Below are positions 6,001-9,000 of a DNA stretch of 12,931 bases, piece after piece. The position numbers were made by a program. Positions within the stretch are counted from its first letter, which is position 1. Every line of letters begins with the position of its first letter. The stretch lies in IMG/VR virus record IMGVR_UViG_2695420487_000017; one strand, given 5' to 3'. This DNA is from a virus (Duplodnaviria > Heunggongvirae > Uroviricota > Caudoviricetes).

Positions 6001-9000
6001 AAAAGGTTGACTCCACTGATCCAGAGAGCTTCAAAGTGCAAGTGAGAAATGTTGACTCCGATCTAAGAATATCGTGCATAGTACAAGATGTTTTTCTCGA
6101 CGCATCCGAGCATAAAAAAGCTCTTCAGCAAGCTGAGTGGGATAGAAAACCAGTTCATTTGTCAATCAACGCAAAAGAACTAGATGGTGAAATAAAGTCC
6201 GCGATAATACTTTATGTCAAAGAGATAACATAATCCTCATCCCGGCCTCAGCGCCGGGTTTTCTTTGCCTCACGATCCCCACATCTAAAAACACATAACC
6301 AATTGTATTTGTTGATGTAACTCGCTAAACCATGCAGTTATGATCCCTGCCGCATAACCTTCATCAGCCACATTTTCAAAAATAAATTTCCTTATATATC
6401 AGAATCATACTTCGTAGAGTTAATAAATCACCAAAATTCGTACCAATAGTTCTTGATAATGTCGAACTATTGGTTCATTATTATCGTCATCAGCAGGACG
6501 CATTACTCACCAGGGCGGTGAATATACAACGATTCGAATATGAATCTACGGCGCTGACAAAGCGCAATAACCAAAGTGAACTTTGGGGTGTGGTGAAGGG
6601 TTCATGGACGGGAATATGTCGCACGTAAAGCGGCGAGGCCTGCGGGACTATTGCCGAATTGAAGTAGGCCGAAACAGGTCGAAATGGGTCTCCCACCTAC
6701 CACACCACCAAAGTTCATCAGGAGGTCTATATGACACGCAGAACTCAGTTCAAAGGCAATTCACGTTCTCGTCGTCGTGAGCGTTTAAAGGCAAAGGCAT
6801 TAGCTAACGGCGTGCTGGCCCGCGAAGAAGCAATAAGTTCAGAAGTATTACACCGCCCTACTCTAAGCAGAGCGCAGATTCAGGCTAAAGGTACTCACGA
6901 AACGCCTGAGCGCATAGAAGACGCTAAGCCAATTAAGTTCATGGCACAGGACGTGATCTGGCAACAGAAAGAATACAGACGCAATCTGGAGCGAGCGGCC
7001 ATTGTGTACGCGAATGAGTTTGGACATAAGCAACCAGAAACTGGTGTATGTCTTCCAAACGTAGCCATTTACGCGGCAGGCTACCGGAAATCCAAACAAC
7101 TGACGGCGAGGTGACTTGTGTTGGTCGCCAGAAAATGAAATTAGGCAGCAAACCACTTATTTGAGGTGAGATATGACAAAATCATGGAGCGTACCTTTTC
7201 CTGAATCAGAAACTGAACATGATGGAATGCCTGTTTTCTGGAGATTCCAGGCGACAGTTGAAGAAGATGGGATAAAAATATTCGCACTTCAATATATAGC
7301 TTTTCATCAGACAGAGCATTATGCATGGTTGGTTCCTGCGCATTGGATTGTTAATTTTAAACCAGCACCAAATCAGTGGTTACAGGAATGGAAACAAAGG
7401 AGAAATAGATATGCAATTAAGAAAGTAGCAAAAAATGCAGAAAGATCTTTTGCATTCCCAACGAAGAAACTTGCCATTGAGAGTTTATTGCACCGGAAGA
7501 AATACCATTTAATGAGAATCAAACAAGATTTGGCTGTTGTATCAACTCTTGTTGATGGGATGAAGAATATTGATACATCAATACCAGATATTGAATATAA
7601 CTTTGGACACAACCAAGAAACAGAAAACTGGGTGTTTTATTAGTACGAATAAGCACTGTGTATTCATTCCAACGAGTGAATACACGGAGCAATGTCGCTC
7701 GTAACCAAACAGGAGCCGACTTGTTCTGATTATTGGAAATCTTCTTTGCCCTCCAATGTGAGGGCTTTTTTATATGCATACCAATAACGCTTCACTAGAG
7801 GCGTTTTCGTTATGTGTAAATAAATAAGGAGCACACCATGCAATATGCCATTGCAGGGTGGCCTGTTGCTGGCTGCCCTTCCGAATCTTTACTTGAACGA
7901 ATCACCCGTAAATTACGTAACGGATGGAAACGCCTTATCGACATACTTAATCAGCCAGGAGTTCCCAAAAATGGATAAAACACTTATGGCTATCCAGACT
8001 AAATTCACTATCGCCACTTTTATTGGTGATGAAAAGATGTTTCGTGAAGCCGTCGACGCTTATAAAAAATGGATATTAATACTGAAACTGAGATCAAGCA
8101 AAAGCATTCACTAACCCCTTTCCTGTTTTCCTAATCAGCCCGGCATTTCGCGGGCGATATTTTCACAGCTATTTCAGGAGTTCAGCCATGAACGCTTATT
8201 ACATTCAGGATCGTCTTGAGGCTCAGAGCTGGGCGCGTCACTACCAGCAGATCGCCCGTGAAGAGAAAGAGGCAGAACTGGCAGACGACATGGAAAAAGG
8301 CCTGCCCCAGCACCTGTTTGAATCGCTATGCATCGATCATTTGCAACGCCACGGGGCCAGCAAAAAAGCCATTATCCGTGCGTTTGATGACGATGTTGAG
8401 TTTCAGGAGCGCATGGCAGAACACATCCGGTACATGGTTGAAACCATTGCTCACCATCAGGTTGATATTGATTCAGAGGTATAAAACGGATGAGTACAGC
8501 ACTCGCAACGCTGGCAGGGAAGCTGGCTGAACGTGTCGGCATGGATTCTGTCGACCCACAGGAACTGATCACCACTCTTCGCCAGACGGCATTTAAAGGC
8601 GATGCCAGCGATGCGCAGTTCATCGCATTGTTGATCGTCGCCAACCAGTACGGCCTTAATCCGTGGACGAAAGAAATTTACGCCTTCCCTGATAAGCAGA
8701 ACGGCATCGTTCCGGTGGTGGGCGTTGATGGCTGGTCCCGCATCATCAATGAAAACCAGCATTTTGATGGCATGGACTTTGAGCAGGACAATGAATCCTG
8801 TACATGCCGGATTTACCGCAAGGACCGTAATCATCCGATCTGCGTTACCGAATGGATGGATGAATGCCGCCGCGAACCATTCAAAACCCGCGAAGGCAGA
8901 GAAATCACGGGGCCGTGGCAGTCGCATCCTAAACGGATGTTACGGCATAAAGCTATGATTCAGTGTGCCCGTCTGGCCTTCGGATTTGCTGGTATCTATG

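What the first reader, a model, noticed from the sequence alone, without database searches (positions are those of the whole stretch)
6551..6565. P22-type N/nut specificity: both boxB hairpins carry a GACAA pentaloop and N has a P22-like arginine-rich motif
nutL boxB is GCGCU-GACAA-AGCGC and nutR boxB (minus strand, 4047-4061) is UCGCU-GACAA-AGCGA. The GACAA loop is the P22 boxB loop as I recall it, not lambda's GAAAA, and the N protein's ARM and C-terminus resemble P22 gp24. Yet the flanking replication and recombination genes are lambda-like, so the immunity/antitermination module is a mosaic swap. nutR boxA (CGCTCTTTTC) sits about 21 nt from boxB, wider than in lambda as I recall it, and I could not find a convincing boxA at nutL.
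Basis: partly seen in the sequence, partly recalled or inferred. Interest (0 to 1): 0.4.

Follow-up and report, generated by a model that had tools for sequence, protein, structure and literature searches.

The report
Known Stx-phage N antitermination sites
The two small RNA hairpins are real: they are the already annotated and experimentally studied nutL and nutR sites of the N antitermination system of 933W/H-19B/HK97-type lambdoid phages, and they share the P22 hairpin type, so the finding is correct but ordinary.

Summary
Window 6551-6565 (+) is GCGCUGACAAAGCGC and 4061-4047 (-) is UCGCUGACAAAGCGA. These are the only two 5-bp-stem GACAA hairpins in the window (0.032 expected by chance). 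One lies between pL and N, the other between cro and cII.

The nutL boxB is 15/15 identical to the P22 nutL boxB, the RNA of PDB 1A4T. N belongs to the P22 gp24 Pfam family (PF25694), not to lambda's N36 family. It is not P22 gp24, though: it is 100% identical to 933W N and differs at 3 of 127 residues from H-19B N. The 933W GenBank record annotates exactly these spans as nutL and nutR.

Published work on H-19B shows three things. ARM mutations abolish antitermination at nutR/tR1. N plus NusA protect the spacer and boxB but not boxA. The nutR spacer holds a second hairpin.

Across relatives, ARM type and boxB loop change together: GACAA goes with GN[AS][KR][TS]RR, and GAAA goes with other ARMs. 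The lambda-like flanks (94-97% identical) are the normal 933W-type mosaic.

Verdict: already known, low interest.

The parts
6453..6481 (+). pL promoter-like site (TTGATA, 17 nt, CATTAT). The transcript probably starts near 6489, inside CATCAGCAGGAC (6488-6499), a leader start shared with lambda, P22 and H-19B.
   Evidence: Promoter scan. Leader motif located and compared with lambda, P22 and H-19B. The start site is inferred by homology and was not measured.
6499..6565 (+). nutL as annotated in the 933W record. It contains a weak boxA-like CGCATTACT (6499-6507), hairpin UCACC-AGGGC-GGUGA (6507-6521), spacer hairpin GAUUC-GAAUAU-GAAUC (6531-6546), linker UACG (6547-6550) and boxB.
   Evidence: The 933W annotation L001 5109-5175 maps onto this span. 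Coordinates, fold. In 80 IMG/VR relatives the spacer-hairpin stem is kept while its loop varies. The boxA-like 8-mer has 4 of 8 mismatches to CGCTCTTT/CGCTCTTA.
6551..6565 (+). nutL boxB, GCGCU-GACAA-AGCGC: the RNA hairpin bound by the N arginine-rich motif.
   Evidence: It is 15/15 identical to P22 nutL boxB and to the RNA of PDB 1A4T. It is invariant in all 72 relatives where it lay within the 260 nt examined upstream of N.
6581..6713 (+). N-leader long-range stem between nutL and the N ribosome-binding site. It includes a boxC-like GGGGUGUGGUG at 6585-6595.
   Evidence: The minimum-free-energy fold closes CUUUGGGGUGUGGUG with CACCACACCACCAAAG. The same basal stem forms in 12 lambdoid leaders from different paired sequences. 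Equating it with the lambda N-leader RNase III stem rests on my own knowledge.
6731..7114 (+). N antiterminator gene (127 aa). ARM at about residues 9-26 (GNSRSRRRERLKAKALAN). C-terminal RNAP-binding motif LPNVAIYAAGYRKSKQLTAR.
   Evidence: Pfam PF25694, E 2.1e-15. phrog_271 'anti-termination protein N-like'. 100% identical to 933W N and 3 differences from H-19B N. H-19B ARM mutants are defective in antitermination.
4047..4092 (-). nutR. It contains boxA CGCUCUUUUC (4092-4083), spacer hairpin GGAC-AUUC-GUCC (4077-4066), linker UACG (4065-4062) and boxB UCGCU-GACAA-AGCGA (4061-4047).
   Evidence: The 933W annotation L001 1648-1693 maps exactly onto this span. Coordinates, fold. It differs from H-19B nutR by one base, in boxA. 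The H-19B nutR footprint shows spacer and boxB protected by N plus NusA, with boxA unprotected.
3962..4046 (-). tR1 region between nutR and cII. By homology it is a Rho-dependent terminator whose rut site overlaps nutR. It includes the dyad CAUAUGCG-UUUC-CACGCAUA (4019-4000).
   Evidence: The sequence is identical to the H-19B cro-cII intergenic region. H-19B nutR/tR1 is used as a Rho-dependent terminator that N overcomes. Its function in this window is inferred.
7748..7805 (+). Two intrinsic-terminator-like hairpins in the pL operon downstream of N (7748-7765 followed by a T-run, and 7786-7805). They are candidate targets of N-modified RNA polymerase.
   Evidence: Terminator scan. That they are N targets is inferred from position only.

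Best explanation
These are the nutL and nutR sites of an H-19B/933W/HK97-type N antitermination module.

Transcription from pL (rightward in this window) and from pR (leftward) produces RNA containing a boxB hairpin with a GACAA pentaloop. The N-terminal arginine-rich helix of N (about residues 9-26) binds that loop. By analogy with the P22 N-boxB structure, the loop probably adopts a GNRA-like fold with the C flipped out.

Bound N recruits NusA to the adjacent spacer, and its conserved C-terminus contacts RNA polymerase. The polymerase then reads through the Rho-dependent tR1 just downstream of nutR and through terminators downstream of N in the pL operon.

The unusually long boxA-boxB distance is taken up by a small spacer hairpin. 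Its folding brings the flanking nucleotides as close together as in P22 and lambda nut sites. BoxA is weak or absent at nutL and appears not to be essential.

**Shown:** sequence, fold, conservation, family membership, and identity to a system with published function.

**Inferred:** function in this particular prophage, the C-out loop geometry, and cross-reactivity with P22.
For: **Position and chance.** These are the only two 5-bp GACAA hairpins in the window, each on the correct strand and between the correct genes; the probability of two or more by chance is 0.001.

**Identity to the characterised system.**
- N is 100% identical to 933W N and differs from H-19B N at residues 60, 80 and 113 only.
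- nutL from the first hairpin (6507) through boxB is identical to H-19B, and the leader upstream differs at one base. nutR differs by one base, in boxA.
- The 933W record annotates these exact spans as nutL and nutR.

**Published function for H-19B (PMC3526286).**
- The ARM is 12-RSRRRER-18.
- R3H, S11F, R15C, R15P and R18P abolish read-through of nutR/tR1.
- N plus NusA protect the spacer and boxB from RNase H and RNase T1, but not boxA.
- Antitermination works in vitro with NusA and NusG.

PMC4499122 uses the same nutR for read-through of intrinsic terminators.

**P22 type.** boxBL is 15/15 identical to P22 boxBL and the 1A4T RNA. N is in PF25694 with gp24, whereas lambda N is in PF11438. 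ARM identity plus conservative matches is 13/18 to P22 against 8/18 to lambda, and the ARM has no Trp.

**Natural covariation.**
- GN[AS][KR][TS]RR-type ARMs go with GACAA: P22, E. albertii, Lonsdalea and the 933W group.
- N proteins 58-75% identical overall but with the ARM NGSA[AS]GRRRERRAALQ go with GAAA, in an otherwise identical nutR scaffold.

**Conservation in 80 relatives.** boxBL is invariant in 72/72 and boxBR in 67/67. nutR boxA is polymorphic. The loop of the nutL spacer hairpin varies while its stem is kept.

**Architecture.** The layout [hairpin]-UACG-[boxB] is kept in 18 nut sites using three unrelated spacer stems.
Against: Nothing was tested on this window itself; all function is transferred from H-19B.

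The ARM is only 7/18 identical to P22's, and BLASTP aligned it with lambda N rather than with gp24. Equal specificity with P22 gp24 is therefore plausible but unproven.

The C-terminal half of the ARM helix (LKAKALAN against RRKLAIER) differs considerably. The P22 contact residues are replaced: Lys by Arg, and Ile by Leu.

The detailed claims that H-19B N does not need boxA, NusB or S10, and that the spacer hairpin acts as a 'reducer', come from my memory of Neely & Friedman 2000. Only the title could be verified here, together with the absence of a boxA footprint.

The spacer-hairpin stems are invariant within each type. The support for them comes from different stems at the same position, not from pairwise compensatory changes in one lineage.
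Confidence: 0.93

Rival explanations
1. The boxB loop is the same as in P22, but this N forms a separate specificity class. On this view the 933W/H-19B ARM reads GACAA through different contacts. P22 gp24 and this N would then not be interchangeable, and the shared loop would reflect convergence or an ancient inheritance rather than one 'P22-type' specificity.
For: ARM identity to P22 is only 7/18, no better than to lambda (6/18) or g341c (8/18). BLASTP does not align the ARMs. Overall identity to gp24 is 39%. There is no DNA similarity to P22 around N or the nut sites. The spacer architecture (hairpin plus UACG) is absent from the P22 nut sites. H-19B defective mutants include R3H, which lies outside the region equivalent to the P22 peptide.
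Against: boxBL is identical to P22's across all 15 nt, stem included. Conservative matches reach 13/18, including the GN cap, K to R and I to L at the positions reported as RNA contacts in P22. Four ARM lineages of the GN[AS][KR][TS]RR kind all pair with GACAA, while the nearest overall relatives with other ARMs do not.
Confidence: 0.2
2. The hairpins are chance inverted repeats or serve another role, such as an intrinsic terminator, a protein operator on DNA, or merely part of the Rho rut site. On this view N antitermination in this element does not depend on them.
For: They are short (15 nt). nutR overlaps the Rho loading region of tR1 in H-19B. The 59-nt nutR region as a whole does not fold much better than shuffles (z -1.37).
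Against: The probability of two such hairpins by chance is 0.001. Neither hairpin is followed by a T-run, and neither is among the terminator-like sites found by the scan. Both are invariant in 67-72 relatives while neighbouring bases vary. N-dependent protection of boxB and loss of function in ARM mutants are published for a nutR that is identical apart from one base in boxA.
Confidence: 0.03
3. The prophage copy is a decayed remnant. The nut sites and N are intact in sequence, but the module no longer functions because the prophage is defective.
For: The window covers only 12.9 kb, so the rest of the element is unseen. About 17-19% of the window does not match 933W. Many E. coli genomes carry partial copies of this region.
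Against: All early genes in the window are full-length open reading frames: P, O, cII, cro, cI, N, bet and exo. N is 100% identical to that of the inducible phage 933W. The promoter-like pL and pR sites are intact.
Confidence: 0.1

Closest known systems
N/nut system of Stx phages H-19B and 933W and of coliphage HK97 (Neely & Friedman 1998, 2000; Sen laboratory: PMC3526286, PMC4499122)
   Same: N is 100% identical to 933W N, 98.4% to HK97 N, and 124/127 to H-19B N. nutL from the first hairpin through boxB is identical to H-19B. The nutR spacer hairpin, UACG linker and boxB are identical. The positions relative to pL/N and cro/cII are the same, and the cII, O and P genes are the same.
   Different: - One base in nutR boxA: CGCUCUUUUC here and in HK97, against CGCUAUUUUC in H-19B and 933W. 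Both alleles are common among relatives.
- cI and cro are 933W-type, not H-19B-type (70% and 22% identity to H-19B).
- A 332-aa ORF replaces the DUF3024, RuvC-like, stk and small-ORF gene cluster of 933W between cI and the cI-operon terminator.
Phage P22 gp24 and its nutL/nutR sites (PDB 1A4T)
   Same: The boxB pentaloop is GACAA at both sites, and nutL boxB is 15/15 identical. The Pfam family is the same (PF25694). The ARM pattern GN[AS][KR][TS]RR[HR]ER is shared, and so is the C-terminal LPxVAxYAAGxRKSKQxTAR.
   Different: - Only 39% identical overall, 127 aa against 100 aa.
- No DNA-level similarity.
- P22 has a consensus boxA (CGCUCUUUA) 10-12 nt upstream of boxB at both sites and no spacer hairpin. 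Here the nutR spacer is 21-23 nt and contains a hairpin, and nutL has no credible boxA.
Phage lambda N and its nutL/nutR sites
   Same: The overall logic and gene order are the same. The pL leader start CAUCAGCAGGACGCA is shared, as is the boxC-like GGUGUG element and the N-leader stem. The flanking O-P-ren and cIII-to-exo genes are 94-97% identical.
   Different: Lambda boxB loops are GAAGA and GAAAA. Lambda N belongs to Pfam PF11438 (N36). Lambda has a Trp in its ARM and this N does not. Lambda's boxA lies 8-9 nt from boxB.
N proteins of epsilon34/g341c, SI8 and VT2-Sakai (same scaffold, different ARM)
   Same: The C-terminal roughly 90 residues are similar, and g341c/SI8 N are 73% identical to the window N in the 10-sequence alignment. 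The nutR spacer hairpin and UACG linker are the same, and so is the boxB stem UCGCU/AGCGA.
   Different: The ARMs are NGSAAGRRRERRAALQ or KGTAASRRRARRANLQ, and the boxB loop is the tetraloop GAAA, that is GACAA without the C. PMC2629481 had predicted a new boxB specificity for epsilon34 N from its divergent N-terminal 27 residues.

Membership tests
H-19B/933W/HK97-type N-nut antitermination module | An N protein of about 127 aa with the ARM 12-RSRRRER-18 and the C-terminal RNAP-binding motif | tested here: met
   100% identical to 933W N. 124/127 identical to H-19B N, with an identical ARM. The ARM as defined in PMC3526286.
H-19B/933W/HK97-type N-nut antitermination module | nutL between pL and N, and nutR between cro and cII, each with a GACAA boxB preceded by a spacer hairpin | tested here: met
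   Coordinates and folds. The spans match those annotated in the 933W record. PMC3526286 reports two hairpins in nutR.
H-19B/933W/HK97-type N-nut antitermination module | N-dependent read-through of terminators that requires boxB and NusA | not testable with these tools
   Published for H-19B N and nutR. Transferred here by sequence identity only.
H-19B/933W/HK97-type N-nut antitermination module | Reduced host-factor requirement (boxA, NusB and S10 dispensable) | not testable with these tools
   Only the title of Neely & Friedman 2000 could be verified; the details are from memory. Three observations are consistent with it: no boxA footprint, polymorphic nutR boxA, and no credible nutL boxA.
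P22 gp24-type N (Pfam PF25694 N_peptide) | A match to the family profile above the curated threshold | tested here: met
   57.5 bits against a cut-off of 27.9, E 2.1e-15, covering residues 2-127. P22 gp24 scores 152 bits, and lambda N does not match this family.
P22-type boxB specificity (GACAA pentaloop, C-out GNRA-like fold) | A boxB hairpin with a 5-bp stem and a GACAA loop at both nut sites | tested here: met
   nutL boxB is identical to the 1A4T RNA.
P22-type boxB specificity (GACAA pentaloop, C-out GNRA-like fold) | An ARM resembling the P22 N peptide at the RNA-contact positions | tested here: inconclusive
   7/18 identical and 13/18 including conservative changes, against 8/18 for lambda. 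K16 aligns with R12 and I28 with L24. BLASTP does not align the ARMs.
P22-type boxB specificity (GACAA pentaloop, C-out GNRA-like fold) | Functional interchangeability with P22 gp24 and its nut sites, or the same loop geometry in the complex | not testable with these tools
   There is no experiment or structure for this N. Indirect support: relatives whose boxB lacks only the C carry different ARMs.
Lambda-type N-nut (Pfam PF11438 N36; GAAAA/GAAGA boxB) | A match to N36, a Trp-containing ARM, and a GAAAA or GAAGA loop | tested here: not met
   No PF11438 hit. No Trp in residues 1-34. The loops are GACAA.

The most novel reading that the evidence does not exclude
The nutR boxA allele in this window (CGCUCUUU, a perfect match to the P22 and lambda boxA core) differs from the H-19B/933W allele (CGCUAUUU), and H-19B is the phage in which boxA and NusB/S10 independence was described. 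Phages carrying the consensus allele, namely this one, HK97 and about 40% of relatives, might therefore assemble a full NusB-NusE-containing complex at nutR. That would make host-factor dependence a naturally polymorphic trait within a single N/nut type.

A second part of this reading is that this N and P22 gp24 form one cross-reactive specificity class, despite 39% identity and different spacer architectures.
Probability: 0.2. Interest if true: 0.3.

Novelty: already known. Interest (0 to 1): 0.1.

Why it matters
N-dependent antitermination controls delayed-early gene expression in lambdoid phages. In Stx phages it therefore lies on the path to prophage induction and to Q-dependent toxin expression.

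This module is already annotated in 933W and has served for two decades as a model system (H-19B N/nutR). Finding it in another 933W-like prophage adds no new biology. The practical value of this check is correct annotation of nutL, nutR, N and the spacer hairpins in this window.

A minor point of general interest is the tidy natural series seen across relatives. The same N scaffold and the same nut scaffold carry either a GACAA or a GAAA boxB loop, and the ARM cassette changes with the loop.

Tried and rejected
- **Rfam.** An E-value-mode search of the whole window found no nut or boxB family. It found only the lambda cIII thermoregulator (7825-7883) and a spurious snoRNA hit.
- **PDB sequence search.** Searching with N gave no meaningful hit. 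The 1A4T peptide is shorter than the 20-residue limit of that library.
- **BLASTP against P22 gp24.** It aligned only the C-terminal 30 residues. Against lambda N it aligned the ARM weakly (E 0.012). Pairwise BLAST is therefore a poor test of ARM type, so I used an anchored comparison instead.
- **First related-loci run.** The 10-sequence alignment had no sufficiently conserved stretch and the run failed. A 6-sequence alignment worked.
- **IMG/VR scan.** It returned only loci with 99-100% identical N. That was useful for polymorphism but not for diversity.
- **GTDB scan.** It gave only 11 loci.
- **Neely & Friedman 2000.** The paper is not held. A search for 'reducer' was swamped by nutrition papers.
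- **Chance or terminator.** I rejected the idea that the hairpins are chance repeats or terminators.
- **Recent transfer from P22.** I rejected this because there is no DNA similarity to P22 in the region.
- **A hidden boxA at nutL.** None within 2 mismatches lies upstream of boxB.
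Full report
**What the window is**

The window is the early region of a lambdoid prophage, read in the opposite direction to the lambda map. The layout is:

| Feature | Coordinates | Strand |
|---|---|---|
| P | 1996-2697 | - |
| O | 2694-3632 | - |
| cII | 3665-3961 | - |
| cro | 4100-4327 | - |
| cI | 4406-5113 | + |
| 332-aa ORF | 5235-6233 | + |
| terminator-like hairpin | 6241-6258 | + |
| N | 6731-7114 | + |
| bet | 8490-9260 | + |
| exo | 9272-9952 | + |

 pL transcription therefore runs rightward on the + strand, and pR transcription runs leftward on the - strand.

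**Checking the observation**

- 6551-6565 (+) reads GCGCT-GACAA-AGCGC.
- 4061-4047 (-) reads TCGCT-GACAA-AGCGA.
- Both fold as 5-bp stems with pentaloops (-7.1 and -5.6 kcal/mol, z -3.2 and -3.8).
- Of the 29 GACAA pentamers on both strands, only these two have a perfect 5-bp stem.
- In 2000 dinucleotide-preserving shuffles the mean was 0.032 such hairpins per window, and two or more occurred with probability 0.001.
- Each hairpin is on the transcribed strand at the expected place, one between pL and N and the other between cro and cII.
- The nutR boxA CGCTCTTTTC lies at 4092-4083, 21 nt from boxB.
- Upstream of the nutL boxB no 8-mer comes within 2 mismatches of a boxA core. The best upstream candidate, CGCATTAC at 6499-6506, has 4 of 8 mismatches.

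**What it is**

Window 3900-7200 is 99.6% identical to phage 933W and many other Stx phages, apart from a replaced block. The whole window is about 98% identical to 933W over 81-83% of its length.

The 933W RefSeq record annotates nutR and nutL as regulatory features. These map exactly onto window 4047-4092 and 6499-6565.

N is 100% identical to 933W N and 98.4% identical to HK97 N. It differs from H-19B N at residues 60, 80 and 113 only, all outside the ARM. The H-19B nutL is identical from the first hairpin (6507) through boxB, and its leader upstream differs at one base. H-19B nutR differs by one base, in boxA: CGCTATTTTC in H-19B and 933W, CGCTCTTTTC here and in HK97.

**Function, from the literature on the near-identical H-19B system**

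PMC3526286 defines the ARM as 12-RSRRRER-18 and reports the following:

- Random mutants R3H, S11F, R15C, R15P and R18P abolish read-through of H-19B nutR/tR1.
- N with NusA and NusG antiterminates in a purified system.
[quoted passage not shown] - nutR overlaps the Rho loading (rut) site of tR1.

PMC4499122 uses the same nutR to drive read-through of intrinsic terminators.

Neely & Friedman 2000 is not held in the library. [quoted passage not shown] From memory of its abstract, it reports that NusB, S10 and boxA are dispensable, and that the spacer dyad symmetry acts as a 'reducer' that brings the flanking nucleotides together. I mark those details as my own knowledge, not as a tool result.

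**The wide spacer**

The 21-nt nutR spacer contains the hairpin GGAC-AUUC-GUCC (4077-4066), followed by UACG and then boxB. The nutL boxB is preceded by GAUUC-GAAUAU-GAAUC (6531-6546) and the same UACG.

Measured from an 8-nt boxA core, the nutR spacer is 23 nt. Removing the 12-nt hairpin leaves about 11 nt, which is the P22 spacing (10-12 nt) and close to lambda's (8-9 nt).

Across 18 nut sites from 11 phages and prophages the layout [hairpin]-UACG-[boxB] is kept. It uses three unrelated stems: GAUUC/GAAUC, GGAC/GUCC and GUCGA/UCGAC.

In 80 IMG/VR loci with 99-100% identical N:

- The nutL spacer stem is constant while its loop varies (GAATAT, AAATAT, AAGCAA, AAACAT).
- boxBL is invariant in 72/72 evaluable loci, and boxBR in 67/67.
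- nutR boxA is polymorphic: CGCTATTTTC in 37 loci, CGCTCTTTTC in 28, CACTCTTTTC in 2.

This pattern fits a structural role for the spacer hairpin and a dispensable boxA.

**Is it 'P22-type'?**

The evidence for:

- P22 nutL boxB is GCGCTGACAAAGCGC, 15/15 identical to the window's. P22 nutR boxB also has the GACAA loop.
- The RNA in PDB 1A4T is this same 15-mer. In that complex Lys3 of the peptide contacts G6 and A7, and the loop C8 contacts an Arg and an Ile (PMC11480772).
- N matches Pfam PF25694 (57.5 bits), the family in which P22 gp24 scores 152 bits. Lambda N matches only PF11438.
- The C-terminal 30 residues are 67% identical to gp24.

The ARM itself is less clear. Anchored on RRxER, it is 7/18 identical to P22, 6/18 to lambda and 8/18 to g341c. 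It reaches 13/18 to P22 when conservative changes are counted, against 7-9/18 for the others. The shared pattern is GN-[SA]-[RK]-[ST]-RR-[RH]-ER. P22 Lys16 aligns with Arg12 and P22 Ile28 with Leu24, and there is no Trp.

The strongest support comes from natural covariation:

| ARM type | Found in | boxB loop |
|---|---|---|
| GN[AS][KR][TS]RR kind | P22, an E. albertii prophage, two Lonsdalea prophages, the 933W/H-19B/HK97 group | GACAA |
| NGSA[AS]GRRRERRAALQ (N 58-75% identical overall to the window's) | g341c, SI8, three enterobacterial prophages | GAAA |
| KGTAASRRRARRANLQ | VT2-Sakai | GAAA |
| other ARMs | HK620-type and two further prophages | other loops |

In the second group the nutR is otherwise the same scaffold as the window's: same spacer hairpin, same UACG, same UCGCU/AGCGA stem. 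GAAA is GACAA without the C. That fits the P22 geometry, in which, as I recall it, the C is the extruded base of a GNRA-like fold (the extrusion detail is from memory). PMC2629481 had already predicted a new boxB specificity for epsilon34 N from its divergent N-terminal 27 residues.

The best-matching N proteins have the same boxB.

**Where the interpretation needs correcting**

- This is not a P22-derived module. Overall identity to gp24 is 39%.
- blastn finds no P22 similarity around N or the nut sites.
- The spacer architecture is H-19B-type. P22 has a consensus boxA and no spacer hairpin.
- The 'mosaic swap' relative to lambda is real: 1643-3726 is 94% and 7776-10952 is 97% identical to lambda, while 3727-7652 is not. 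But it is simply the standard 933W-type arrangement found in hundreds of Stx phages.

**Rivals**

- *Separate specificity class.* This N may read GACAA differently from P22 gp24 and not be interchangeable with it. I cannot exclude this and give it about 0.2.
- *Chance or another role.* Very unlikely (about 0.03), given the shuffles, the conservation and the published footprints.
- *Defective prophage.* Possible, but all early ORFs in the window are intact.

**Verdict**

The finding is correct in observation and largely correct in interpretation. It describes an already annotated and experimentally characterised system. Novelty: already known. Interest: low.

The only unexplored angles are whether the consensus boxA allele at nutR changes the host-factor requirement, and whether this N and P22 gp24 are truly cross-reactive.

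Noticed in passing
window 5235-6233 (+): A 332-aa ORF sits between cI and the cI-operon terminator. This is the position of rexAB in lambda and of the DUF3024, RuvC-like and stk genes in 933W. It matches phrog_6191 (function unknown), gets no PADLOC hit and has only a sub-threshold Pfam hit. At the DNA level it is absent from all 50,697 phage records. It is present in 9 of 5426 complete E. coli genomes and in 3 of 80 IMG/VR loci with the same N. Its position suggests a candidate lysogen-expressed exclusion or defence gene.
   Followed up: partly
window 6581-6713 (+): There is a long-range stem in the N leader: CUUUGGGGUGUGGUG pairs with CACCACACCACCAAAG, with one bulged base. The same basal stem forms in 12 lambdoid N leaders, including lambda and P22, with fully different paired sequences and variable apical parts. 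From memory, it probably corresponds to the RNase III-processed stem of the lambda N leader. It contains a boxC-like GGGGUGUGGUG at 6585-6595. A small hairpin, CCAAAG-UGAA-CUUUGG (6571-6586), competes for the same CUUUGG.
   Followed up: partly
loci L007, L008, L009, L093-L096 (nutL and nutR of g341c, SI8, VT2-Sakai and enterobacterial prophages): N proteins on the same scaffold but with the ARMs NGSA[AS]GRRRERRAALQ or KGTAASRRRARRANLQ go with boxB hairpins carrying a true GAAA tetraloop. In g341c, SI8 and VT2-Sakai the nutR differs from the window's nutR boxB by deletion of the loop C only. This is a natural swap of ARM cassette and loop.
   Followed up: partly
window 4088 (-), within nutR boxA 4092-4083: There is a single-base polymorphism in nutR boxA. 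This window and HK97 have CGCUCUUUUC, which matches the boxA core. H-19B and 933W have CGCUAUUUUC. Among 80 relatives the counts were 37 (A allele), 28 (C allele) and 2 (CACUCUUUUC).
   Followed up: partly
L099 140-619 and L100 4653-5123 (Lonsdalea britannica): These N homologues combine three features: a P22-like ARM (GNAKTRRQARRREAAIERD) with a GCGCU-GACAA-AGCGC boxB, the P22-type CLPNVAIYAAGHRK motif, and an extra lambda-like C-terminal tail, GTQKFKGKSIPLI (lambda N ends GRQKIKGKSIPLI).
   Followed up: no
window 7825-7883 (+): Rfam RF01804, the lambda cIII thermoregulator element, matches at full length (88.5 bits, E 6e-21) at the start of cIII.
   Followed up: no
L092 (Xanthomonas pisi DSM 18956, 394-bp contig): A 394-bp contig in a Xanthomonas assembly encodes residues 5-127 of this N at 99% identity. 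It looks like contamination of that assembly with E. coli phage DNA.
   Followed up: no
L057 about 4740-5000 (IMG/VR contig): This locus has an odd duplication or junction upstream of N. The N ribosome-binding site and its first codons (…AGGAGGTCTATATGACACGCAGA) are fused to GCGCAATAACC…, the sequence just after boxB, and a second complete leader follows. It is possibly an assembly artefact or a recombination product.
   Followed up: no
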